Shown: piece after piece, positions 25,005-56,991 of the stretch
Position numbering within the stretch: position 1 is the first letter of the stretch
Layout: every line of letters starts with the position of its first letter
Origin: an uncultured Gammaproteobacteria bacterium
GTDB lineage: Bacteria; Patescibacteriota; Patescibacteriia; UBA1558; S5-K13
Assembly: GCA_964640635.1 (NCBI GenBank)
Contig: CAZXFD010000001.1
Coordinates: 17,273 to 81,272, forward strand
Direction of reading: 5' to 3'
Length of the DNA: 64,000 bases
Translations under genes and position numbers: made by a program
The notes under the pieces: generated by a model
Told to the model about the DNA's origin: nothing
Databases searched by the model: none
Seen by the model: only the letters and a program-made list of their open reading frames with translations

Positions 25005-26996
25005 TTATATAAGTAGTCCTATTATAAGAAGCGCAACAATATTAACAATTTTTATCATAGGATTAATTGCAGGTCCTGCTGTATCCTTGTAAGGATCTCC
25101 AACCGTGTCTCCTGTTACAGCGGCTTTGTGAGCATCAGAGCCTTTTCCGCCATGATTTCCAAGTTCTATATATTTTTTAGCATTATCCCAAGCACCTCCT
25201 CCAGATGTCATAGAAATTGCTACAAATATTCCAGTAATAATTGTTCCCATTAAAAGTCCTCCAAGAGCAGGCACGCCAAGTATAAAGCCAACAAGTATTG
25301 GAGCAAGTACTGGAATAAGAGATGGAACTATCATTTCTCTAATAGCAGATTTTGTAACAATATCAACAGTTCTACCATAATCTGGTTTTTCTGTGTTTAG
25401 CATTATCCCTGGTTTTTCTTTGAACTGTGCCCGGACGTCTTCTACTACCGCTCCTGCTGCACGTCCTACTGCTTGCATTGATAGAGCACCAAAGTAGTAT
25501 GGTAGAAGTCCACCAAGAAATAATCCTATTAGAACATATGGATCGTTGATTAAAAATTGAACACCATTTGCACTTTGAGAAAAATCTGCAAATAATACTA
25601 GGGAGGCTAGAGCAGCGCTACCAATAGCATAGCCTTTTGTAACTGCCTTTGTGGTATTTCCAACAGCATCTAGTGGGTCTGTAATATTTCGGACATCATC
25701 TCCTAGTTCTGCCATTTCTGCGATTCCACCAGCATTGTCAGTAATAGGACCATAAGCATCAATAGTAACAATAATTCCAGCCATTGAAAGCATCGAAACT
25801 GCTGCAATAGCAATTCCATATAATCCCGCTAGAGAATATGCACCAAGAATAGCAAGGACAATTGCAATAATAGGAAGTCCCGTAGATTTCATAGAAACTG
25901 CAAGTCCTGCAATTACATTTGTGCCATGTCCTGTTTCAGACGCTTTTGCAATTTGTTTTACTGGAGCGTATTTTGTTGAAGTAAAATATTCTGTAATGAC
26001 TACAAGAGCACCAGTAACTAATAGTCCAATAATAGAAGCTAAATACAAATTCATCACACTATATTTTCCATTATCTTTCATTACCCAATTTATGACAGGA
26101 TAAAATGCAATCGCAGAAAGAACTCCTGCTGCAATAAGGCCTTTGTAAAGAGCCATCATGATATTTTGGGATTTTCCAAGTCTGATAAAATAAATTCCTA
26201 TTATTGATGCAATAATTGAAACAGCACCAAGAATAAGTGGGAATAATATATACATTTCATTTGATCTACCAAATGTCAAAACCCCAAGAATCATTGCTGC
26301 AATTGAAGTAACGGCATATGTTTCAAAAAGGTCTGCGGCCATTCCAGCACAATCTCCTACGTTATCACCAACATTGTCAGCAATTACAGCAGGGTTTCTT
26401 GGATCATCTTCTGGAATTCCTGCTTCAACTTTTCCAACGAGATCTGCGCCTACATCAGCGGCTTTTGTAAATATTCCGCCTCCAAGTCTAGCAAATATAG
26501 AAATAAGAGATCCTCCAAATCCAAATCCAATTAAAGCATGGATATCACGAGTTATAAGATAAAATCCTGCAGTTCCAAGAAGTGCAAGTCCTACAACAAG
26601 CATTCCAGTAATACTTCCGCCTTTTACAGCAACACCAAGCGCTTTTTTCATGCTGGTTTTTGCAGCTTCAGTAGTTGTGACATTTGCACGAACCGAGATG
26701 TTCATTCCAATATATCCAGTAAGAGCAGATAGTATCGCACCTATTATAAATGCAGTAGCAGTAGTCCATCCAAGACTTGGTACAAATCCAATAATTATAA
26801 ATAGTGGTATTGCCACCATAAACACTGTTTTGTATTGTCTGTTTAAAAATGCTTTTGCACCCGCTTGAATAGCATGAGCAATTTCTTGCATTTTTTCATT
26901 GCCTTTTGGAAGCTTAAGAATTGATCTAATTGAAATTGCCCCATATAGTATTGCTACTAGAGCACTTCCAATTATCAGAATTGAAGTGATTTCCAT
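25005..26996 (-). CDS. hppA: Membrane-bound proton/sodium-translocating pyrophosphatase
   Basis: 663 aa with about 15 TM helices and the signature [22 protein letters not shown]. Confidence 0.92.
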
Positions 26997-46982: not shown

Positions 46983-47035
46983 TTGTTAGATTGTGCTAAA
47001 GTTGTTTTTACAAAAAAAGAATATGGAGGTAACCA

Positions 47036-47233
47036 ATGTCAAACAAAGTATTACCAGATGGTCCAAATACTCGTGGTGAGCAAAAGAAGTTTGTAGATCC
47101 ACATCCTACAAATCGTAAGGGTACTCCTCTTGGTGGCCGTGGAAGAGGTAGATGTAAAGGAGGTTCAGAACATAGAAATCGTAGACCGGAGTCTGTTGAT
47201 AGCACAGATACAGATGATGATTCTTGTCAGTAA
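47036..47233 (+). CDS. Small, highly basic Gly/Arg-rich protein with an acidic C-terminus (possibly a KGG-repeat stress-protein type)
   Basis: RBS ggaggtaacca precedes the ATG; 65 aa with GGRGRGRCKGGSEHRNRR, followed by a clean hairpin terminator. Confidence 0.45.
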   Translation: MSNKVLPDGPNTRGEQKKFVDPHPTNRKGTPLGGRGRGRCKGGSEHRNRRPESVDSTDTDDDSCQ

Positions 47234-47251
47234 TCATCACAATCAATAATT

Positions 47252-47286
47252 TAAGGAGTCTCCAATGGGACTCCTTTTTGTTTTGA
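47252..47286 (+). terminator. Terminator after the small basic protein gene
   Basis: aggagtc-tccaatgg-gactcct followed by ttttgtttt. Confidence 0.7.
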
Positions 47287-47592
47287 TTAGCTTATGAAAT
47301 TGTGAGTCATAAATTTATTTAAATAAGTTGATTATTGTTGATAAAAATTAAAATATTATCCACTTGACGTTTGTTTGTATATATGCTAGGATATTTCGTT
47401 AGGTTGTAATTTGACAATAAAACTTATTTATTGCATATTCTGATTTAATGCTTGAAAAAGCTTATTTCCAGGGTTCATATACGCTCATTTTTTGGCTTTT
47501 ATAAGAAGTAATATGGGCTCATTTGAATCCTGGAAATATATAAAAATCAGGAAATATAAATAACAAAAATAATCATAACGAGGAGGATTGTT

Positions 47593-48258
47593 ATGAAGTT
47601 CAAAGATATATGGATCAAAAAAGATCCTGATTCTAAGCCACAAGATCAGAAACCACATATTAGTGTTGGTGGAACGAGTGTGCCAGTGGTGCCAGCAACA
47701 CAACAACATTCTTCAATGAGTGTTTCGTTGCCGAATCAGTCTGAAAATGATGGGGTTGATAATGAATTTAATGATGAATTTGAGAATTCTCTAAAAAACA
47801 TTCAGTTACCCCAGGGTTTCGTAGAATTCATCACTTTGATGGATGAACTTGAAGATACTATCACAGATGTTAAGTTGCGAGTAAAGGCGGCGCTTAAGCA
47901 CGCTATCGGCCATGGTATTTCTAAGGAACAGATTATTTCTTTTTTAACAAAAGAATTAACTACCGTTCAGGAAACAGCCAATAATATTAGAAATGATATC
48001 GAATCGCAAGTTGCTGCTAAAATCAAAGAAAGCGCAACAAAAGTCCAATCCTGCCTACAACAGATTGAAGATATTGATAATAAAATTACAGAACTTCAAA
48101 ATCAGAGGGCTCAGCTTGTTTCTCAGAAAGGATCGGCTGAAGCAGAAAATTCGGTTATAAATCAGAAAAAAGATAAGGCTTTATCTAAGCTTCAATCTGC
48201 GCTGAATTTTCAGCATAACGAAATAAATAATCTATTATCCTACGTTCAACAAGCGTAG
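47593..48258 (+). CDS. Uncharacterised soluble coiled-coil protein (GC-rich island)
   Basis: Strong RBS gaggagg; 221 aa with a Q/P-rich N-terminus followed by about 140 aa of heptad-like helix. Confidence 0.5.
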   Translation: MKFKDIWIKKDPDSKPQDQKPHISVGGTSVPVVPATQQHSSMSVSLPNQSENDGVDNEFNDEFENSLKNIQLPQGFVEFITLMDELEDTITDVKLRVKAALKHAIGHGISKEQIISFLTKELTTVQETANNIRNDIESQVAAKIKESATKVQSCLQQIEDIDNKITELQNQRAQLVSQKGSAEAENSVINQKKDKALSKLQSALNFQHNEINNLLSYVQQA

Positions 48259-48272
48259 GAGGGGAGATAAGG

Positions 48273-49385
48273 ATGGAAACACCAAATTTACCAACACTCA
48301 AATCATCGCTGGATACATTTCTTTCTAAGAAGGAAAAGATTTCGGGCTATCTGTTAACGGGAGGTATAATCATAGCTGCCGTAATCGGATTAAATGCCAT
48401 ACTGCCCTGGTTATCCAATATGCTTGGGAATCTGATAGCAGTTGTTGGAAAGTTAATTACCTTGGGTATAATGGGGATCGCTGCTGCTGGTTTGGTAGTC
48501 ATTGCTCTTTCAGAGCGTACGCATACTTTAGTCAAAATCGCTTTTGCCAGATTGGCTAGAGGTGCCACAATGACTTTTATCAAGTATTCACCGTGGACAA
48601 TTCCTGAAATTTACATAGAGTATATTGATAAGAAGGCGCGAGATATTTATCAAAAAATAACAAACGTACTAGCTATTAATAACTCTATCAAAAAAGCTCA
48701 TGGCAAAAATGTTGAAATTATTGAAAGTAATGATGAAACTTGCAGGTCTTTACAGGAACGATATTTCAAGAATGGTGTTTGGGTAAGTGAAGAACATCAT
48801 AATCTTTTCAGAGAAAAGGCCAGTGATACAGATTTTCGGACTAGATCCAATAAAAATCTTCAAAAACAAATTGACCGGTTGGAGTTTTATTTGACCGTGC
48901 TCAAAAAGTTTGAGCAAGCTTTTAAGTATCGCAGAAATGTTTTGAGAAACTTTTGCGATGCTATCGTGCTTGAATACAATGCAACCAAAGAATCCGCAGA
49001 AGTTACCCGAGAATTAGCTACTCTTTTTGGAACAGATGACATGAAAAAGGTTTTTGACATGTCAGTACAATTTATGCAAGATCGTATGAGCAATTTTGTC
49101 GCAGAGACAGATACCTTTTTCCAGACGAATATGTCTGCTCTCACCGAAATGGATCTTAGCCAAGACGTCGCCGAAGACGCCTATATGAATAGGTTGAAAC
49201 AAATGGGTGATAAGGCTGATCTTTTAATTGAGCAAGCAGATCAGGATCAAAAACTCATTACTTCTGCCGGTTCCGGAAAAGATATGATGAAAATCATCAT
49301 GGAACAAAAGACAGATGGCGTTTATGTTCCCGCTGGTCGTAATACTGGAACATTCGGTAGTAAGAAAAACTACCTTGACATTTAA
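48273..49385 (+). CDS. Uncharacterised membrane protein with two TM helices and a long coiled-coil cytoplasmic domain (GC-rich island)
   Basis: RBS ggagg; Gly-rich helices (GGIIIAAVIGLNAILPWL and LGIMGIAAAGLVVIAL) followed by about 270 aa of helical sequence. Confidence 0.5.
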   Translation: METPNLPTLKSSLDTFLSKKEKISGYLLTGGIIIAAVIGLNAILPWLSNMLGNLIAVVGKLITLGIMGIAAAGLVVIALSERTHTLVKIAFARLARGATMTFIKYSPWTIPEIYIEYIDKKARDIYQKITNVLAINNSIKKAHGKNVEIIESNDETCRSLQERYFKNGVWVSEEHHNLFREKASDTDFRTRSNKNLQKQIDRLEFYLTVLKKFEQAFKYRRNVLRNFCDAIVLEYNATKESAEVTRELATLFGTDDMKKVFDMSVQFMQDRMSNFVAETDTFFQTNMSALTEMDLSQDVAEDAYMNRLKQMGDKADLLIEQADQDQKLITSAGSGKDMMKIIMEQKTDGVYVPAGRNTGTFGSKKNYLDI

Positions 49386-49419
49386 ACTCATAACAAATAA
49401 AGAAAAAATAGGAGAAATC

Positions 49420-50964
49420 ATGTTCAAGAATTTAACTACCTTTGCGAAGATATTCATTATTTTCGTTGTTGTGGCTATAGTGGTTACTATTAGCTATTTC
49501 AGTTTTGACAAACTTGCCCCCGAAGGTAATTCTGTCAATACCAGCAAGCTCTCGGAAGATGTGAGACAAGCCGTCAAAGACGGCACTCCGCTTGTCACAA
49601 TATGCTTTAATACCTGGCTCGGATTCTCCGGAGGAATAGCATACAACGGTGGCACAGAGGCTTCCAAAAGTTCCAGATATTTCACTGAACAGGGTATTTT
49701 AGTTCAGTTTAAACTCATGGATGACTTTGAGGCTTCTCGCAACGCCTTTCGTTCCGGTGACATCGATATGATGTGGACTACCGTGGACTCTTACCCTACA
49801 GAGACCGATGGTCTCAAAGAGTTTGAGCCGCAGTTTTTATTTCAGATTGACTGGTCTCGCGGTGGAGATGCCGTTGTCGTAAGACGTGGAATTAACACTG
49901 TTAATGAGTTGCGTGGTAAGAAAATTGCTTGCGCACTCGGAGCGCCTAGTCATAGTTTGATAATTAACACCCTAGAAGCCGCAGGAATTCCATATAATGC
50001 AGTTGAAATAATTGCAATGCCAACAGCTATTCAAGCCGCCGATGCTTTTAAAGCTGGTCAAGTTGATGCTGCTGTGGTTTGGGCTCCGGATGATGACGTG
50101 TGCGTCGAAGCTGTTCCTGGATCCAAAAAACTTTTCACTACCAAAGAAGCCACGAACATTATTGCGGATGGTTTCTATGCAAAGAAAAGGTGGGCACTGG
50201 ACAACAAAGACACTGTTGTCAAGGTTGCTGCCGGTTTCATGGTCGGTAATGCAGAGATAAATACTGATCCCTCCGCAAAGCAGAGGGCAGTTGAAGTTAT
50301 GTCGGTCGCTCTTGGTCAAAAGGCAGATTTTTGCCTTAGTGGCATAAATAATGTCCGTTTGTCTACGGTCGGGGATAATATGAATTTTCTTGGTCTTGGT
50401 AGCGGATATACAGGAATCACTGCTGAAGCGCTTTACAGACGAATGGCAACTGCGTATCAGCAAGTTGATTATTTAAAAAGCGCGCCTCCAAGTTGGAATC
50501 AAGTTTATGACAAATCTATTATTCCAGCTGTTGCACAAAAAATTCCACCTACTGGAAGTCAAGCACCGGAAAGCGGAGCTGAATTTAGACGATTAAGTAA
50601 TTCTGCTGATTTGGATGTCCGAGCTTCTAAAGATATGACTGTGAATTTCAGTCCCGGTTCATCATATTTGGATGATAATGCTAAACAGCTTATAGACGTA
50701 GGCTTTGCCCCAGTAGCTCAACAATTTGCACAGATGCACATTCGTGTATCTGGGCATACGAGTACAGATGGAAGCCGCGATGTAAATGTTAGGCTTTCCA
50801 GAAGTCGTGCGCAAGCAGTCGTCGACTATCTTGTTCAGCAGTATGGATTTAGTCCGAATAGGTTTATTGTAGCCGGTTATGGACCTGATCATCCAATCGC
50901 AACAAACGATACAGAAGAAGGTCGCGCCAAAAACAGGCGGACTCAATTCGAACTCGTAGAATAA
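49420..50964 (+). CDS. ABC transporter substrate-binding protein (NMT1/SsuA/TauA-like) fused to a C-terminal OmpA/MotB-like peptidoglycan-binding domain
   Basis: The start is taken at ATG 49420 with RBS aggag; an N-terminal TM helix and an SsuA-like core (KIACALGAPSHSLIINTLEAAGIPYNAVEI...DAAVVWAP). The C-terminus reads SGHTSTDGSRDVNVRLSRSRAQAVVDYL...GYGPDHPIATNDTEEGRAKNRRTQFEL (OmpA_C). Confidence 0.7.
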   Translation: MFKNLTTFAKIFIIFVVVAIVVTISYFSFDKLAPEGNSVNTSKLSEDVRQAVKDGTPLVTICFNTWLGFSGGIAYNGGTEASKSSRYFTEQGILVQFKLMDDFEASRNAFRSGDIDMMWTTVDSYPTETDGLKEFEPQFLFQIDWSRGGDAVVVRRGINTVNELRGKKIACALGAPSHSLIINTLEAAGIPYNAVEIIAMPTAIQAADAFKAGQVDAAVVWAPDDDVCVEAVPGSKKLFTTKEATNIIADGFYAKKRWALDNKDTVVKVAAGFMVGNAEINTDPSAKQRAVEVMSVALGQKADFCLSGINNVRLSTVGDNMNFLGLGSGYTGITAEALYRRMATAYQQVDYLKSAPPSWNQVYDKSIIPAVAQKIPPTGSQAPESGAEFRRLSNSADLDVRASKDMTVNFSPGSSYLDDNAKQLIDVGFAPVAQQFAQMHIRVSGHTSTDGSRDVNVRLSRSRAQAVVDYLVQQYGFSPNRFIVAGYGPDHPIATNDTEEGRAKNRRTQFELVE

Positions 50965-51037
50965 GAAAATAATTCCGGAGTGGACAGACGAATGTCTGCC
51001 CACTCCTTTTATTTCTAACTCAAAAAAAGGAGAGTTT

Positions 51038-51835
51038 ATGTTCAGTCAGCTTTTCCAACTCCGCGGATCTTTAAGCAAAAAAGTATCAGGTTTGTGTGAA
51101 TTTATAGGTATCTTGGTAATACTCATTATTTGGACAGTAGTGTCAGAAATGGGTGTTGTTCCCAAGGGAATACTTCCCTCACCCATCAAGATTCTTCAAT
51201 CACTTCCGGAACTCCATTTTGAAGATGCGCTTGTGAGAAATTTATTTTACTCATTTAAGCTCAATTTGTTTGGTGGAATGGAAGCAGTAGCACTTGCTAT
51301 ACCACTTGGTTTTTTAATAGGTCTTGTGCCTGTTTTAAAGGCAATTTTTGGTAGATATATAGAAGCGATTCGATTTTTGCCACTTACAGCGACCATTGGT
51401 TTATTTATTGTAGCTTTTGGACTTGATACAAACATGAAAGTTCAATTTCTTGCCTTTGCGATATTTATTTATTTAGTACCGCAAGTCAAAAGAAGAGTTG
51501 AAGAAGTAGAGGATGTGTATGTTCAAACAGCTCAAACAATAGGTGCTAATGCCTGGCAAAAAATTAGAATAGTATTTGTTCCAGCGGTTTTTGCAAGGGT
51601 TTATAATGATATTGTAAATCTTATAGCTTTGTCATGGACCTATGTAATCGTAGCAGAAATGGTAAACACATCTGGCGGTGGCATAGGATCTCTTACATTT
51701 ATTTGTTTCCGACAAGGAAGAATTGACAAGGTCTATGCAATTTTGATAGTGATTATTCTCTTCGGAATATTACAGGATTTTGTCATGAAGTTGTTGGGAA
51801 AAGTTTTATTCTCTTATTACAAAGAGGGGTGCTAA
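51038..51835 (+). CDS. ABC transporter permease (NitT/TauT family)
   Basis: Six TM helices and a conserved AEMVNTSGGGIGSL loop. Confidence 0.8.
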   Translation: MFSQLFQLRGSLSKKVSGLCEFIGILVILIIWTVVSEMGVVPKGILPSPIKILQSLPELHFEDALVRNLFYSFKLNLFGGMEAVALAIPLGFLIGLVPVLKAIFGRYIEAIRFLPLTATIGLFIVAFGLDTNMKVQFLAFAIFIYLVPQVKRRVEEVEDVYVQTAQTIGANAWQKIRIVFVPAVFARVYNDIVNLIALSWTYVIVAEMVNTSGGGIGSLTFICFRQGRIDKVYAILIVIILFGILQDFVMKLLGKVLFSYYKEGC

Positions 51836-51836
51836 C

Positions 51837-52700
51837 ATGGGAGCAATTCAACAAGTAACAATGTTTCACGACCCAAGTGGTAAAATGCCGGATCACATTT
51901 CTTTTATTGATAATCCTGCTTGGCCCAATATCATTGAGTTCAAGAAGATAAGTCAGTATTATCCTGGCAGAAAAGACCCCGTGATTCTTGATTTGGATTT
52001 GATCATTGAGGATAAACCAGGTGAGGGTCAGTTTGTGGTAATACTTGGACCATCTGGGTGTGGAAAGTCAACCTTGCTTCGCTATGCATGCAAACTACAA
52101 AACCCAACATCTGGCGAAGTTTTGTTAAATGGCCGTATTATCAATCACAATGATCATATCAATATGGTTTTCCAGAATTACTCTTCCTTTTGGTGGTATA
52201 CGGTGCTTGAAAATGTCATGCTCCCGCTTCTTATTCAAGGTATCTCAAGAAAAGAAGCTAAAGAAAGAGCAATGGATATTATCAATAAGGTTGGTCTTTC
52301 CGGTCATGAAAACAAGTGGGCTATATACCCCGCTTTATCAGGAGGACAGCTGCAGCGAGTAGCCATTGCAAGGTCTCTCATCACAAATCCCAAGATTCTT
52401 CTTATGGATGAGCCATATGGAGCGCTTGATATTGTGACAAGGTTTAAAATGCAAGAGCTTATTTCCCATATCTATGACACAACAGATAATATTACCATTA
52501 TCTTTGTGACTCATGATATTGAGGAAGCAGTTTTCCTCGCAGACGACATTTATGTCATGGATGCAAATCCGGGACGTATAGTCCAAAGGTTTCATCCAAA
52601 TCTTCCCTCGGTAAGAACCTGGGAAACCAAGGATGATCTAGTATTCATTCAATCCGTTCACGAAGTTCGCAACTTCATGCGTTCTTTTGAACGCAAATAA
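51837..52700 (+). CDS. ABC transporter ATP-binding protein
   Basis: Walker A GPSGCGKST, signature LSGGQLQRVAIARSL and Walker B LLMDEPYGALD. Confidence 0.85.
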   Translation: MGAIQQVTMFHDPSGKMPDHISFIDNPAWPNIIEFKKISQYYPGRKDPVILDLDLIIEDKPGEGQFVVILGPSGCGKSTLLRYACKLQNPTSGEVLLNGRIINHNDHINMVFQNYSSFWWYTVLENVMLPLLIQGISRKEAKERAMDIINKVGLSGHENKWAIYPALSGGQLQRVAIARSLITNPKILLMDEPYGALDIVTRFKMQELISHIYDTTDNITIIFVTHDIEEAVFLADDIYVMDANPGRIVQRFHPNLPSVRTWETKDDLVFIQSVHEVRNFMRSFERK

Positions 52701-52713
52701 TTAATCAATCAAT

Positions 52714-52763
52714 AGACCCAAATCTCACGTAATACAACGAAGAGATCTGGGTCTTATTTTTTT
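52714..52763 (+). terminator. Terminator after the ABC ATPase gene
   Basis: 13-bp stem agacccaaatctc / gagatctgggtct followed by tattttttt. Confidence 0.7.
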
Positions 52764-52768
52764 ATATA

Positions 52769-52810
52769 AAAAATAAACAGGCTGAGAATTTCTCAACCTG
52801 TTTTTTATTT
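52769..52810. terminator. Bidirectional terminator serving the rhomboid gene
   Basis: caggctgaga-att-tctcaacctg flanked by an A-run and a T-run. Confidence 0.6.
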
Positions 52811-52818
52811 GAACAACT

Positions 52819-53358
52819 TTATTTTCTAAAAGTTCTTGCGGCATATATTCCGCCAATAAATCCAAAGAAATGTCCCGTCCAACTAATACCTTGTTGAGTA
52901 TGTATTAGCATTAATAATGTGGTTCCATAGGAAATTGCTACGACAATAGAAATGAAGATTGCTAATATATCATGTCTGTATATTCCTATGAAAAGTAAAT
53001 AACCTATTAGCCCAAAGATTAATCCACTTGCGCCAATGTGAATTGAATTAGCTCCAAATACCCAGACACCAAAGCCACCTACAATTATGATTATTATTAT
53101 TGCACCTATTGCTAGTTTTCTATTGTATGAATATGTAATTCCTAGCAGGATAAATAGTGCAATACTATTTGCAATTATGTGACCTAAATTGGCATGTAAA
53201 AAAGGTGTAAATGCTATTCCTATTAATCCATGGATATTTCTTGGAATTATTCCAAAACTCCTTAAGTCAATCGGTAATATTGTGTCTATTATATAGATAG
53301 TCCATATAATTACCAGCCACCGAAAAGCTGCTACAAAGCCATTTATAATGTTTTTCAC
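52819..53358 (-). CDS. Rhomboid family intramembrane serine protease
   Basis: GASGLIFGL (GxSG nucleophile), a His in HFFGFIGG and six TM helices. Confidence 0.75.
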   Translation of the reverse strand: MKNIINGFVAAFRWLVIIWTIYIIDTILPIDLRSFGIIPRNIHGLIGIAFTPFLHANLGHIIANSIALFILLGITYSYNRKLAIGAIIIIIIVGGFGVWVFGANSIHIGASGLIFGLIGYLLFIGIYRHDILAIFISIVVAISYGTTLLMLIHTQQGISWTGHFFGFIGGIYAARTFRK

Positions 53359-53459
53359 ACATCCTCCTTAATTTTTGAAATTCATGTTAATTTAACATAT
53401 AACATATATTTTGTAAATAGCTAGTCAATGATATAAATAATAAAAAAGACTGACATTTG

Positions 53460-54362: not shown

Positions 54363-54452
54363 GGAAGGTTCGCCTAGTGGCCTATGGCGCCTGCTTGGAA
54401 AGCAGGTTTCCCTTCACCGGGATCGGGGGTTCGAATCCCCCATCTTCCGCCA
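54363..54452 (+). tRNA. tRNA-Ser (anticodon GGA), type II with long variable arm, CCA encoded
   Basis: Acceptor GGAAGGT/ATCTTCC, anticodon stem CCTGC/GCAGG with loop TTGGAAA (anticodon GGA), T-arm GGGGGTTCGAATCCCCC, and a terminal GCCA. Confidence 0.85.
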
Positions 54453-54476: not shown

Positions 54477-55190
54477 ATGCCAAAATCAGATAACAAAAAA
54501 ACACTAGTATTATTTGATGTCGGAGGAGTGCTCGTTAAATTAAATTTTTCAAAGTTTTATAATGAAGTTATAAAATTATCAAAAAATATTAGTGTTGATG
54601 AATTCAAAAAGCGATTTTCAAATGAAATTCAGAAATATTCATTAACTGGTAATCTAGCATTAGAAGAATATTTTGAAAAATTAAGAGGAATTATATCTTC
54701 GGGAAAATATATAAGCAATAAAGAGTTTGAAGATTTATTTGCTTTTGCTTTAGGTGAATCTATTGATGAAATAATAAAGCTTAAGAAAAGAATTTATGAA
54801 GCTGGGTATTCAGTAGGAATATTTTCGAATATTGATGATATAGCTCTAAAGATTATTAAGCAAATGGACGGGGAGGTGTTTGAAACTTATGATAAGTCGA
54901 ATCCTGTAATCTATTCTCATGAAGTGGGTCATACCAAAATTGATAAAGAAATGTATGAAAAGATTAGCGGCTATGACAGAATTGTATATATAGATGATAA
55001 TGAAAATTATTTGAAAATTGGTATTGAAAAATTTTCTTGGTACGGAATTTTATTTACTGAATATATTGACGACGCAGAAGCAATTCGTTTGGTGCATAAT
55101 GATAAAACAAGACCCGAAAAAAATTTTAAGATTGCAAATAATATAGGGGGGTTAGAAAATGCCTTAAGAGAGTTTGGAATTAAAATATAA
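54477..55190 (+). CDS. HAD-superfamily hydrolase
   Basis: Motif I LVLFDVGGVL and a later DDN acidic motif. Confidence 0.6.
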   Translation: MPKSDNKKTLVLFDVGGVLVKLNFSKFYNEVIKLSKNISVDEFKKRFSNEIQKYSLTGNLALEEYFEKLRGIISSGKYISNKEFEDLFAFALGESIDEIIKLKKRIYEAGYSVGIFSNIDDIALKIIKQMDGEVFETYDKSNPVIYSHEVGHTKIDKEMYEKISGYDRIVYIDDNENYLKIGIEKFSWYGILFTEYIDDAEAIRLVHNDKTRPEKNFKIANNIGGLENALREFGIKI

Positions 55191-56214: not shown

Positions 56215-56991
56215 GTGTTAAATAAAAATTATTTTATGCAAAATTTTGAAAAAAAAGAATTTGAATTATTAGAAGAAAAAAGGCGTATAAGAGATAGCGT
56301 TGCTGGGATATTTTCATCTCAAGATTTTAAACTTGGAAAAGAAAAGGTTTGTAATCAATTTGTTTTATCAAATGGGGGGGGAGTGATTAATAGCAATGAA
56401 GATGAGAATGGTATTGTTAAAATTATATTGAACTTGAAAAATGGAGTAGTACTTGATTTTAGTAATTTATTGCCAGATGGATGGAAATTTGTTTCTCCTA
56501 CATTTCTGATAAAATCTGGGAAAGAAAAAGTAGCCGGTGTTTGGTCTGCCAATTTAGAACAAAAAACAATTTCAGTAGGAGAAATTAAGGGAACGGAATC
56601 TGTTTTTGCTCTTTTGCACGAGATAGGACATGCATTAGATAAAGAAAAAATGAAAAAAGCAAACGAGGTATATGAAAATTATGGAGAATCAAGATCATTT
56701 AATTCTTTTTCTTCTTCCGCAGAAAGAGTTGCTTGGGCAAATGCAATAAATTTAATGCGTAAACTTCGTGATGATGGAATAAATCTTTTTGAATTTATAG
56801 GTTGGGAAGACTTTAGATCATTTATGTATAAGAGCCTGGCGGATCATAGAATTGTGGCATCTCTAGATGAAATACAATCGGCAAAAGAAACTCAAAAGTT
56901 TGTAGAAAAATTAGGAGGTCATTATAAGTTTGAGGATGTGGATATAGAATATTTAAAAAAATTATTTGATAAAAATATTAAAGATTATTAA
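56215..56991 (+). CDS. Hypothetical protein with an HExxH zinc-metallopeptidase-like motif
   Basis: LLHEIGHALD; no further family recognised. Confidence 0.4.
   Translation: MLNKNYFMQNFEKKEFELLEEKRRIRDSVAGIFSSQDFKLGKEKVCNQFVLSNGGGVINSNEDENGIVKIILNLKNGVVLDFSNLLPDGWKFVSPTFLIKSGKEKVAGVWSANLEQKTISVGEIKGTESVFALLHEIGHALDKEKMKKANEVYENYGESRSFNSFSSSAERVAWANAINLMRKLRDDGINLFEFIGWEDFRSFMYKSLADHRIVASLDEIQSAKETQKFVEKLGGHYKFEDVDIEYLKKLFDKNIKDY

What the first reader, a model, noticed from the sequence alone, without database searches (positions are those of the whole stretch)
46990..52760. Compositionally distinct (higher-GC) island carrying uncharacterised coiled-coil proteins and an ABC importer
From about 47.0 to 52.7 kb the sequence is visibly GC-richer than the flanks (stretches such as ccgaaggtaattctgtcaataccagcaagctctcggaagatgtgagacaagccgtcaaagacggcactccgcttgtc are near 45-50% GC against about 30% elsewhere). 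Genes in this segment also carry strong GGAGG-type ribosome binding sites. The segment is bounded on the right by two strong terminators.

It contains a small basic Gly/Arg-rich protein, a 221-aa soluble coiled-coil protein, a 370-aa two-TM coiled-coil protein, and a complete substrate-binding protein / permease / ATPase transporter of the NitT/TauT (sulfonate/nitrate/bicarbonate) type. I could not assign a family to either coiled-coil protein. This is most likely a horizontally acquired module.
Basis: partly seen in the sequence, partly recalled or inferred. Interest (0 to 1): 0.65.

Follow-up and report, generated by a model that had tools for sequence, protein, structure and literature searches.

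The report
Acquired PspA-like plus wall-tethered ABC operon
A 6-kb stretch that four close relatives lack is a horizontally acquired copy of a widespread but untested five-gene operon: a membrane-anchored PspA/ESCRT-III-like protein, a coiled-coil partner, and an ABC importer whose binding protein carries a cell-wall-binding domain.

Summary
The compositional island is real. The five genes between 47,593 and 52,700 hold ranks 1-4 and 7 of 60 for GC3 (0.28-0.38 against 0.20 +/- 0.03), and the tetranucleotide distance peaks there (z 3.9). Four close relatives, about 88% identical in the flanks, lack window 47,302-53,454 and carry an unrelated small gene instead. Horizontal acquisition is therefore supported.

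- The 65-aa Gly/Arg protein is native. It has low GC3 and is conserved in the relatives.

The two "coiled-coil" genes are not orphans. The same gene order (about 220 aa, about 340 aa, SBP-OmpA, permease, ATPase) recurs across many phyla; 50 of 68 analysable loci have both upstream genes.

The 370-aa protein is a two-TM-anchored, divergent PspA/IM30 (ESCRT-III superfamily) relative. Its family's hhalign match to PspA+Vipp1 is 76% probability, E 2e-5; Foldseek's top hits are Vipp1; PF04012 is the commonest weak Pfam hit in its family. The 221-aa protein stays unassigned.

Ravi et al. 2024 already described this kind of operon by comparative genomics, and no experiment exists. I rate it a new member of a known kind, of moderate interest.

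The parts
47302..47592 (+). Island-specific AT-rich leader and promoter region. It holds sigma-70-like sites (47364-47392, 47411-47439) and a long imperfect hairpin at 47463-47538.
   Evidence: Homology to relatives L004 and L007 ends at 47301 and 47287. Promoter-like sites. Inverted repeat I1. RNA fold of 47440-47595 is -45.4 kcal/mol, z -6.5. No Rfam family. The arm sequence is unique in the window. The leader is about 99% identical in a second strain, L095, whose protein is only 94% identical.
47593..48258 (+). 221-aa soluble protein (P221 family): short conserved N-terminal motif, about 55 low-confidence (probably disordered) residues, a conserved helical domain, and a C-terminal coiled coil. 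No family assigned.
   Evidence: GAGGAGG ribosome binding site. GC3 0.302. Homologs sit directly upstream of the E3 gene in 57 of 68 loci. Family alignment A6. Pfam and PDB give only generic coiled-coil hits. hhalign against PspA+Vipp1 gives 5% probability. AlphaFold2 pLDDT 64. Foldseek finds nothing.
48273..49385 (+). 370-aa membrane-anchored PspA/IM30 (ESCRT-III superfamily)-like protein (E3 family): N-terminal two-TM hairpin (about residues 19-79), then a cytoplasmic long helical hairpin (109-164 / 173-249) and three further helices.
   Evidence: The exhaustive HMMER search finds 359 cluster representatives, nearly all about 330-390 aa and matched over most of their length. AlphaFold2 pLDDT 79.6. 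Foldseek top hits are Vipp1 (E 5e-3, probability 1.0, TMt 0.56-0.64). The family profile hits Vipp1 in PDB sequences at E 0.03. 15 of 91 family members hit PF04012, best 4e-5, the commonest family. hhalign A3 against PspA+Vipp1: 76% probability, E 2.2e-5, residues 105-244 to PspA 23-152. Topology is inferred from the flanking positive charges.
49420..50964 (+). 514-aa substrate-binding protein with an N-terminal membrane anchor, an NMT1/SsuA/TauA-type binding domain and a C-terminal OmpA-like peptidoglycan-binding domain.
   Evidence: PF00691 at 70 bits, PF09084 at 32.6 bits. TIGR01728, TauA and YiaD-type hits all fall below equivalog cut-offs. PDB sequence matches: OmpA-like domains at 1e-14; NrtA, SsuA and TauA at 1e-7 to 1e-8. 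At least 1384 homologs, which NCBI names 'phosphate ABC transporter substrate-binding/OmpA family protein'. Start site.
50977..51006 (+). GC-rich 13-bp-stem hairpin followed by TTTTATTT, between the SBP and permease genes. Possible internal attenuator or mRNA stabiliser.
   Evidence: The scan lists it on the minus strand. On the + strand the sequence shows one A.C mismatch and a T-run. Its function is inferred.
51038..51835 (+). 265-aa ABC importer permease.
   Evidence: PF00528 at 44 bits. Best NCBIfam hits are SaoP, TauC and SsuC, all below cut-off. 81% identical to the L008 permease.
51837..52700 (+). 287-aa ABC ATPase, its start tightly coupled to the permease stop.
   Evidence: PF00005 at 104 bits. 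Best NCBIfam hits are TauB and SaoA, below cut-off. GC3 0.375, the highest in the window.
52714..52803 (.). Two terminator hairpins that close the operon. The second (52775-52803) is bidirectional and also serves the convergent rhomboid gene.
   Evidence: -34.3 kcal/mol, z -6.8.
52819..53358 (-). 179-aa rhomboid protease gene. It lies inside the strain-specific segment but has native composition, so it is probably not part of the acquired operon.
   Evidence: PF01694. GC3 0.217. There is no DNA homology here in the relatives, whose gene at this position is an unrelated Cys-rich protein of 153 or 159 aa.

Best explanation
**What it is.** Window 47,302-52,803 is a horizontally acquired five-gene operon. 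It was inserted, or swapped in, at a variable spot downstream of pyk-ppsA. It is one copy of a conserved unit found in many bacterial phyla, with these genes in order:
1. A cytoplasmic coiled-coil protein (221 aa).
2. A protein anchored in the membrane by an N-terminal two-TM hairpin. Its cytoplasmic part is a divergent PspA/IM30 (ESCRT-III superfamily) helical hairpin (370 aa).
3. A substrate-binding protein held to the membrane at its N-terminus and to peptidoglycan by a C-terminal OmpA-like domain.
4. A NitT/TauT-type permease.
5. A NitT/TauT-type ATPase.

**What is shown.**
- The composition is foreign.
- The segment is absent from four relatives.
- The gene order is conserved across phyla.
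- The domain content is as listed.
- The 370-aa family matches PspA/Vipp1 at profile level (hhalign 76%), and the window protein's model has Vipp1 as its top Foldseek hit.

**What is inferred.** The PspA-like protein polymerises on the inner face of the membrane, with the TM hairpin replacing the amphipathic helix alpha-0 of PspA. The polymer would stabilise or remodel the membrane, and the 221-aa protein would act as its adaptor or regulator. The wall-tethered ABC importer would take up an unidentified small solute. This would couple envelope maintenance to transport, as Ravi et al. 2024 proposed for related operons. Most copies, including this one, have no linked Vps4-like or two-domain AAA+ ATPase.
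For: - **Composition:**
- **Absence in relatives and boundaries:**
- **Native copies in higher-GC genomes:**
  - L001, 55% GC, with flat GC3 across the operon and its flanks.
  - L093, 53% GC.
  - L008, 41% GC. It is 72-81% identical in protein and 70% in DNA over the transporter genes.
- **Conservation of the operon:**
  - The SBP-OmpA gene was confirmed in 555 stretches of species-representative genomes.
  - 55, 57 and 50 of 68 loci have the E3 gene, the P221 gene, or both, directly upstream.
  - Tenacibaculum, Cloacimonadota and metagenome contigs show the same order.
- **PspA-like assignment of the 370-aa protein:**. The P221 family serves as a negative control.
- **Transporter and OmpA domains:**
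- **Literature:** PMC11237479 describes operons that combine PspA, a membrane-anchored divergent Snf7, an ABC ATPase, a permease and a PBPB+OmpA protein.
Against: - The window protein itself hits no Pfam family.
- Every PspA signal is sub-threshold or moderate: Foldseek E 5e-3, hhalign 76%.
- The 221-aa protein has no assignable fold.
- The substrate is unknown; all equivalog cut-offs are missed.
- There is no integrase, no flanking direct repeat and no adjacent tRNA, so the route of acquisition is unknown.
- The operon looks mosaic. The E3 protein is 24% identical to L008 while the transporter genes are 72-81% identical, so "one transfer from one donor" may be too simple.
- No experimental data exist for any member.
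- I could not establish the lineage of the window organism.
Confidence: 0.6

Rival explanations
1. The segment is ancestral in this lineage and was lost from the four relatives. Its higher GC would reflect protein composition or selection rather than foreign origin.
For: Relatives carry a different gene at the site, so this is a replacement hotspot rather than a clean insertion. No mobility genes or repeats are present. The rhomboid gene in the same strain-specific segment has native composition.
Against: The excess GC sits at synonymous third positions, and synonymous codon usage is the most deviant in the window. By contrast, the truly composition-driven GC bumps keep low GC3: the 65-aa gene and the H+-PPase gene both sit at about 0.17. 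The nearest transporter homologs are on a 41%-GC contig with unrelated flanks. All four relatives lack the segment.
Confidence: 0.07
2. The operon is just a nutrient importer (sulfonate, nitrate or similar). The two upstream coiled-coil genes are functionally unrelated passengers.
For: The permease and ATPase are ordinary type-I importer components of the NitT/TauT family. Some loci have the SBP-OmpA gene and transporter genes with no detected upstream pair, for example L051, L079 and L090.
Against: Both upstream genes keep the same order and strand in 50 of 68 species-level loci spanning Bacteroidota, Desulfobacterota, Cloacimonadota, Fibrobacterota, Calditrichota, Spirochaetota and two CPR lineages. 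Intergenic gaps are short or absent. That degree of conservation across phyla implies a functional link.
Confidence: 0.1
3. The 370-aa protein only mimics PspA because both are long helical hairpins. It would be an unrelated membrane coiled-coil protein, and the operon would have nothing to do with ESCRT-III-type remodelling.
Against: Three searches give nearly the same register. Family positions 105/106 to 244-249 align with PspA or Vipp1 residues 23 to about 152-155, beginning at the family's conserved DP motif. PF04012 is by far the commonest weak Pfam hit, in 15 members against 4 or fewer for any other family. The equally coiled-coil P221 family scores only 5% in the same hhalign test. Ravi et al. 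independently called a membrane-anchored protein in this kind of operon a divergent Snf7.
Confidence: 0.2
4. The operon is an anti-phage defence or other conflict system. A peptidoglycan-anchored membrane complex with coiled-coil proteins recalls Zorya.
For: It lies in a strain-variable region. The OmpA domain gives domain-level hits to ZorB models, and the optional AAA+ gene gives weak IetA and TRIP13 hits.
Against: There is no ZorA/MotA-like protein and no nuclease or other effector. PADLOC gives no hit for the 370-aa protein, and for the 221-aa protein only weak matches to long coiled-coil regions of JetC, LmuB and Avs2. The operon is conserved as a single-copy unit in many free-living Bacteroidota rather than patchy.
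Confidence: 0.03

Closest known systems
PspA / membrane-anchored Snf7 / AAA+ / ABC / PBPB-OmpA operons described by Ravi, Anantharaman, Aravind, Gennaro and colleagues (mSystems 2024, PMC11237479; example OGG56892.1, Candidatus Handelsmanbacteria)
   Same: [quoted passage not shown]
   Different: The published example runs PspA -> PBPB+OmpA -> permease -> ATPase -> TM+Snf7 -> two-domain AAA+. Here the order is 221-aa coiled-coil -> TM+PspA-like -> SBP-OmpA -> permease -> ATPase. There is no AAA+ gene, and the first gene is not detectably PspA. I could not obtain OGG56892.1 or its neighbours, so direct homology to them is untested.
PspA / Vipp1 (IM30), PF04012, bacterial ESCRT-III superfamily
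   Same: The predicted alpha1-alpha2/3 long helical hairpin plus further helices. The family's conserved DP motif at the start of the hairpin aligns with the EDP of PspA and Vipp1. The domain is predicted to lie on the cytoplasmic face of the membrane.
   Different: The amphipathic helix alpha-0 is replaced by a two-TM hairpin. Sequence identity is about 11-16%. The Pfam gathering threshold is not reached. Polymerisation is untested.
LiaI-LiaH of Bacillus subtilis (small membrane anchor plus PspA homolog; from general knowledge and mentioned in PMC11237479)
   Same: A PspA-type protein is held at the membrane by a dedicated TM element as part of an envelope-stress module.
   Different: Here anchor and PspA-like domain are one polypeptide. 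There is no LiaFSR two-component system, and the module is linked to an ABC importer instead.
NitT/TauT-family ABC importers (SsuABC, TauABC, NrtABCD)
   Same: An NMT1/SsuA-type binding domain, a BPD_transp_1 permease, and a TauB/SsuB-like ATPase.
   Different: No equivalog cut-off is met, so the substrate is unknown. The binding protein carries an extra OmpA-like domain and an N-terminal anchor.
OmpA-like peptidoglycan anchors (YiaD, Pal, MotB/PomB, TssL, ZorB)
   Same: The C-terminal domain matches PF00691 (70 bits) and solved OmpA-like domains at 1e-14. The N..LS..RA motif is conserved.
   Different: It is fused to an ABC substrate-binding domain rather than to a stator, porin or lipoprotein.

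Membership tests
PspA/IM30 (PF04012), ESCRT-III superfamily: the 370-aa protein | Match to the Pfam PspA_IM30 model at or above the gathering score | tested here: not met
   The window protein hits no Pfam family at E <= 0.1. Fifteen of 91 family members hit PF04012 at E <= 0.1, best 4.2e-5, and it is the commonest family.
PspA/IM30 (PF04012), ESCRT-III superfamily: the 370-aa protein | Profile-level homology over the alpha1-alpha3 hairpin | tested here: inconclusive
   hhalign of A3 against PspA+Vipp1 gives 76% probability, E 2.2e-5, 130 columns, residues 105-244 to PspA 23-152. hmmsearch of A3 against PDB sequences gives Vipp1 at E 0.03, starting at the same Vipp1 residue. The P221 control scores 5%.
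PspA/IM30 (PF04012), ESCRT-III superfamily: the 370-aa protein | Long helical hairpin followed by shorter helices (the ESCRT-III fold) | tested here: inconclusive
PspA/IM30 (PF04012), ESCRT-III superfamily: the 370-aa protein | N-terminal amphipathic membrane-binding helix alpha-0 | tested here: not met
   Two hydrophobic TM helices (about residues 19-79) occupy that place.
PspA/IM30 (PF04012), ESCRT-III superfamily: the 370-aa protein | Self-assembly into rings, rods or carpets on membranes | not testable with these tools
   This needs purified protein and electron microscopy, or at least multimer modelling.
PspA/IM30: the 221-aa protein | Sequence or profile similarity to PspA | tested here: not met
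   hhalign of A6 against PspA+Vipp1 gives 5% probability. PF04012 is hit by only 6 of 51 members, fewer than many generic coiled-coil families. Foldseek finds nothing.
PspA/Snf7-ABC-PBPB+OmpA operon type (Ravi et al. 2024) | [quoted passage not shown] | tested here: met
   for the window. for the published definition.
PspA/Snf7-ABC-PBPB+OmpA operon type (Ravi et al. 2024) | Linked two-domain AAA+ ATPase with an inactive N-terminal copy | tested here: not met
   There is none in the window; the operon ends at terminators after the ABC ATPase. Among the 80 genome loci, only 7 have such a gene within 8 kb; contig L001 has one as well.
PspA/Snf7-ABC-PBPB+OmpA operon type (Ravi et al. 2024) | Direct homology of the window proteins to the published example (OGG56892.1 and its neighbours) | not tested
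NitT/TauT-family ABC importer | NMT1/SsuA-type binding domain, BPD_transp_1 permease and ABC_tran ATPase encoded together | tested here: met
   PF09084, PF00528 and PF00005 all score above their cut-offs.
NitT/TauT-family ABC importer | Assignment to a substrate-specific equivalog (taurine, sulfonate, nitrate and so on) | tested here: not met
   All NCBIfam equivalog scores fall far below their cut-offs: TauB 190 against 357, SaoP 94 against 295, SsuA_fam 57 against 163.
OmpA-like peptidoglycan-binding domain (PF00691) | Pfam match above the gathering score, with the N..LS..RA motif conserved | tested here: met
   70 bits against a cut-off of 27.2. N488, S492 and R495 are invariant in alignment A5. 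Solved OmpA-like domains match at 1e-14. Peptidoglycan binding itself is untested.
Classical genomic island / integrative element | Deviant composition and absence from close relatives | tested here: met
Classical genomic island / integrative element | Integrase or transposase, flanking direct repeats, insertion next to a tRNA | tested here: not met
   No such gene appears among the ORFs. Only short AT-rich chance repeats were found. The nearest tRNA (Ser-GGA, 54363-54452) lies 1.6 kb away, beyond two genes.
Zorya-type defence | ZorA (MotA-like) and ZorB stator pair plus effector genes | tested here: not met
   Only the OmpA domain hits ZorB models. There is no ZorA-like protein and no effector.

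The most novel reading that the evidence does not exclude
The five-gene unit could be a self-contained trans-envelope machine rather than a transporter with passengers. The binding protein, tied to both membrane and peptidoglycan, would report wall-membrane geometry or a wall-derived ligand. The ABC ATPase cycle would then drive or gate assembly of the membrane-anchored PspA-like polymer and its 221-aa partner, taking the place of a Vps4-like AAA+. That would fit the absence of a linked AAA+ gene in about 90% of loci. It would be an ESCRT-III-type system powered or controlled by an ABC transporter.
Probability: 0.15. Interest if true: 0.75.

Novelty: new member of a known kind. Interest (0 to 1): 0.4.

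Why it matters
For this genome, the finding marks a clean, recent gene gain in a low-GC lineage. The boundaries are defined and "before" states exist in four relatives.

More broadly, the operon is present in hundreds of species, mainly Bacteroidota, including culturable Tenacibaculum, Aquimarina and Flavilitoribacter. Two of its five protein families matched no Pfam model here, and I found no experimental study.

If the PspA-like assignment holds, this is a large, tractable group of membrane-anchored bacterial ESCRT-III relatives. They are linked to a wall-tethered transporter and mostly have no linked AAA+ gene. That bears on an open question raised in PMC11237479: how PspA-type polymers are regulated without a dedicated ATPase.

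Tried and rejected
- **Word-indexed protein searches.** Searches with the 370-aa and 221-aa proteins found almost nothing: one 38%-identical homolog and one 94% variant. That made them look like orphans. The exhaustive HMMER search and synteny showed they are not.
- **Genome scan with A3.** The E3 alignment was too divergent to seed the scan, so I used the SBP-OmpA alignment instead.
- **Structure of P221.** The two-sequence model is low-confidence and its fold search is uninformative.
- **P221 as a PspA or a paralog of E3.** Rejected.
- **Defence system.** Rejected; PADLOC gives only domain-level hits.
- **Riboswitch or known RNA in the leader.** No Rfam family.
- **tRNA-targeted integration, integrase, flanking repeats.** None found.
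- **The rhomboid gene as part of the acquired DNA.** Its composition is native. Its low codon likelihood is shared with other minus-strand genes and fits the strong strand skew.
- **The GC bump at 25-27 kb as a second island.** It is an H+-pyrophosphatase gene with GC3 0.166, so the GC reflects amino-acid composition.
- **Naming the host organism.** This failed. Cluster look-ups carry no names and literature searches on the accessions found nothing. One guessed BioProject number returned irrelevant papers.

Full report

The window averages 31.6% GC. In 1-kb windows GC rises to 0.37-0.44 between 48 and 53 kb. In 300-bp windows it reaches 0.46 inside the binding-protein gene.

The excess sits at synonymous sites. 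GC3 of the five genes is 0.302, 0.350, 0.356, 0.278 and 0.375, against 0.203 +/- 0.034 for 55 other genes. That is z +2.2 to +5.1, and the genes rank 1-4 and 7 of 60. Three of them have the lowest synonymous-codon likelihoods in the window. A strand-symmetrised tetranucleotide distance peaks at 48-51 kb, z 3.9.

Two other GC-rich spots are not foreign. The 65-aa Gly/Arg gene has GC 0.42 but GC3 0.167. The H+-pyrophosphatase gene at 25.0-27.0 kb has GC3 0.166. Both owe their GC to amino-acid composition.

**2. Boundaries and relatives**

PpsA of the window falls in a 90%-identity cluster with proteins from four other assemblies. Their contigs (L004-L007) are syntenic: groES-groEL, a 228-aa gene, mamF-like, pyk, ppsA, a 98-aa gene and a 65-aa gene. 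After that they go straight to minus-strand genes, with no trace of the five-gene block.

By blastn, about 88% identity runs up to window 47,301 (L004) or 47,287 (L007). That point is just after the terminator of the 65-aa gene. Identity resumes at 53,455 (L004) or 53,398 (L007).

In the relatives the gap holds an unrelated Cys-rich gene of 153 or 159 aa. In the window it holds the five genes plus a rhomboid gene of native composition. The site is therefore a replacement hotspot.

The small basic protein belongs to the core genome, not to the island. No integrase or meaningful direct repeats flank the segment, and the only tRNA (Ser-GGA, 54363-54452) is two genes away. A second strain carries a 94-97% identical copy (P0284, P0005).

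**3. The module is a conserved operon, not a collection of orphans**

The word-indexed search found a single 38%-identical relative of the 370-aa protein. Its contigs (L001 and L002, 55% GC) have the same five genes in the same order plus an AAA+ gene. GC3 is flat across the operon and its flanks, so the operon is native there.

The binding protein has at least 1384 homologs at about 45% identity. NCBI names them [quoted passage not shown]. Contexts in a Cloacimonadota MAG and in Tenacibaculum finnmarkense again show two Pfam-less genes (about 222-235 aa and 334-352 aa) directly upstream.

A scan of species-representative genomes confirmed 555 matching stretches. Of the 80 best loci, most are Bacteroidota:
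- Saprospiraceae, Lewinellaceae, Chitinophagales, Bacteroidales;
- Tenacibaculum, Aquimarina.

Others come from elsewhere:
- Geobacter, Cloacimonadota, Fibrobacteria, Caldithrix;
- Spirochaetia, Turneriella, Thiotrichaceae;
- two CPR MAGs, Saccharibacteria and Moranbacteria.

Using HMMs of the two upstream families, 55 of the 68 loci with enough upstream DNA have the E3 gene, 57 the P221 gene, and 50 both. All lie on the same strand just upstream. A linked AAA+ gene of 600-650 aa occurs in only 7 of the 80 genome loci (and on contig L001), so the window's five-gene form is the common one.

**4. What the proteins are**

*E3, 370 aa.*
- An exhaustive HMMER search of 1.84 billion representatives found 359 relatives, nearly all about 330-390 aa and matched over most of their length.
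- With a 91-sequence alignment, AlphaFold2 (pLDDT 79.6) predicts an N-terminal helical TM hairpin (19-79), a helix at 81-105, a long hairpin (109-164 and 173-249) and three further helices.
- Foldseek's best PDB hits are Vipp1 structures (E 5e-3, probability 1.0, TMt 0.56-0.64, nearly full Vipp1 length).
- The family profile hits Vipp1 sequences in the PDB at E about 0.03.
- PF04012 (PspA_IM30) is the commonest weak Pfam hit among members: 15 of 91, best 4.2e-5, next family 4.
- hhalign against a PspA+Vipp1 pair gives 76% probability and E 2.2e-5 over 130 columns, residues 105-244 to PspA 23-152. I checked the pair against PDB entries.
- The alignment begins where the family's conserved DP motif meets the EDP of PspA.
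- The P221 family, also coiled-coil, scores 5% in the same test.

I conclude, with moderate confidence, that E3 is a membrane-anchored PspA/ESCRT-III-superfamily protein in which a TM hairpin replaces helix alpha-0. From the positive charges on both sides of the hairpin I infer an N-in, C-in topology and a cytoplasmic PspA-like domain.

*P221, 221 aa.*
- The family shares a short N-terminal motif, a low-complexity linker, a conserved helical domain (consensus GFDYLEF...G.T..KL) and a C-terminal coiled coil.
- Pfam, PDB sequence search, hhalign and Foldseek give nothing specific.
- It stays unassigned.

*Transporter.*
- The binding protein most likely starts at ATG 49420.
- It has an N-terminal hydrophobic anchor, an NMT1/SsuA/TauA-type domain and a C-terminal OmpA-like domain.
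- The permease and ATPase are NitT/TauT-like.
- No equivalog cut-off is met, so the substrate is open.

**5. Origin**
- The transporter genes are 72-81% identical in protein, and 70% in DNA over 49,546-52,698, to an unnamed 41%-GC metagenome contig (L008 and L009). Next nearest is a Cloacimonadota MAG at 52%.
- In a neighbour-joining tree without bootstrap, window plus L008 group with Cloacimonadota, Caldithrix, Geobacter and Moranbacteria rather than with Bacteroidota.
- The CPR copies are no closer than the Bacteroidota ones (43-44% identity).
- E3 behaves differently. It is 24% identical to L008's E3 but 38-40% identical to E3 on 53-55%-GC contigs, whose binding proteins are only 41-47% identical.
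- Either E3 evolves very unevenly, or the operon is a recombinant of two lineages.
- I could not name the host organism, so "CPR" is unverified.

**6. Relation to the literature**

Ravi et al. (mSystems 2024, PMC11237479) report the following. [quoted passage not shown] Those operons also encode an ABC ATPase, a permease and a PBPB+OmpA solute- and peptidoglycan-binding protein. Their example is OGG56892.1 from Candidatus Handelsmanbacteria. They suggest a link between membrane remodelling and solute transport.

The window's operon is of this kind. It differs in gene order, in lacking the AAA+ gene, and in having P221 rather than a recognisable PspA as the first gene. My two full-text searches on this topic returned no other paper on the system.

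**7. Mechanism**

These points are shown:
- the composition is foreign and the segment is strain-specific;
- the gene order is conserved across phyla;
- the domain content is as described;
- the E3 family matches PspA/Vipp1 at profile level, and the window protein's model resembles Vipp1.

These steps are inferred:
- E3 polymerises at the inner face of the membrane, with P221 as adaptor or regulator.
- The binding protein bridges membrane and wall.
- The importer takes up an unknown small solute.
- Together they form an envelope-maintenance module.

**8. Verdict**

The object is a new member of a known, computationally described but experimentally untouched operon family. Interest is moderate, 0.4.

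Noticed in passing
window 47036-47276: A 65-aa Gly/Arg/Pro-rich basic protein with an acidic Cys-containing tail. It has its own GGAGG ribosome binding site and a strong terminator (47253-47276). A 65-aa gene sits at the same syntenic position in all four relatives, within DNA about 88% identical. No family hit in Pfam, NCBIfam or PADLOC. Function unknown.
   Followed up: partly
window 47463-47538: A long imperfect hairpin (29-nt arms) in the operon leader. Folding 47440-47595 gives -45.4 kcal/mol, z -6.5. The arm sequence is unique in the window and there is no Rfam match. The 207-bp leader is about 99% identical in a second strain (L095), whose downstream protein is only 94% identical, which suggests constraint on the leader.
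   Followed up: partly
window 50977-51006: A strong GC-rich hairpin followed by a T-run, between the binding-protein and permease genes. It could be an internal attenuator or mRNA stabiliser that gives an excess of binding protein.
   Followed up: no
window 48273-52700 compared with L008, L001, L093: The operon looks mosaic. The transporter genes are 72-81% identical to a 41%-GC contig whose E3 is only 24% identical. E3 is 38-40% identical to copies on 53-55%-GC contigs whose binding proteins are only 41-47% identical.
   Followed up: partly
window 52819-53358 (-); L004 13115-13576 (-); L007 12729-13208 (-): At the same site the window has a rhomboid protease gene of native composition, while the relatives have an unrelated Cys-rich protein of 153 or 159 aa with no Pfam hit. 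The locus is a replacement hotspot apart from the acquired operon.
   Followed up: partly
window 54477-55190 and 56225-56973; L004 14382-15194: There are further strain-specific differences near tRNA-Ser(GGA). A 237-aa gene (weak, below-threshold HAD-hydrolase match) and a 258-aa Pfam-less gene are present in the window but not aligned in the relatives. L004, L005 and L006 carry a radical-SAM gene that the window lacks. All have native GC3.
   Followed up: partly
window 25005-26996 (-): The only other GC bump in the window (0.37-0.39) is an H+-translocating pyrophosphatase gene. Its GC3 is 0.166, so the GC comes from amino-acid composition and this is not a second island.
   Followed up: yes
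L001 1349-1642; L093 1-285: The two high-GC contigs with the closest E3 relatives share an extra conserved small gene of about 95 aa just upstream of the P221 gene (motif V..G..P.G.H..P.L.TWPT). It is absent from the window and has no Pfam hit.
   Followed up: no
L011 11341-14167; L012 9645-12471; L001 6880-8646: In Tenacibaculum the operon is extended by an AAA+ ATPase of about 634 aa (AAA, AAA_lid_6) and a 2OG-Fe oxygenase-like gene. L001 also has a linked AAA+ gene (588 aa). This extension is rare, 7 of the 80 genome loci.
   Followed up: partly
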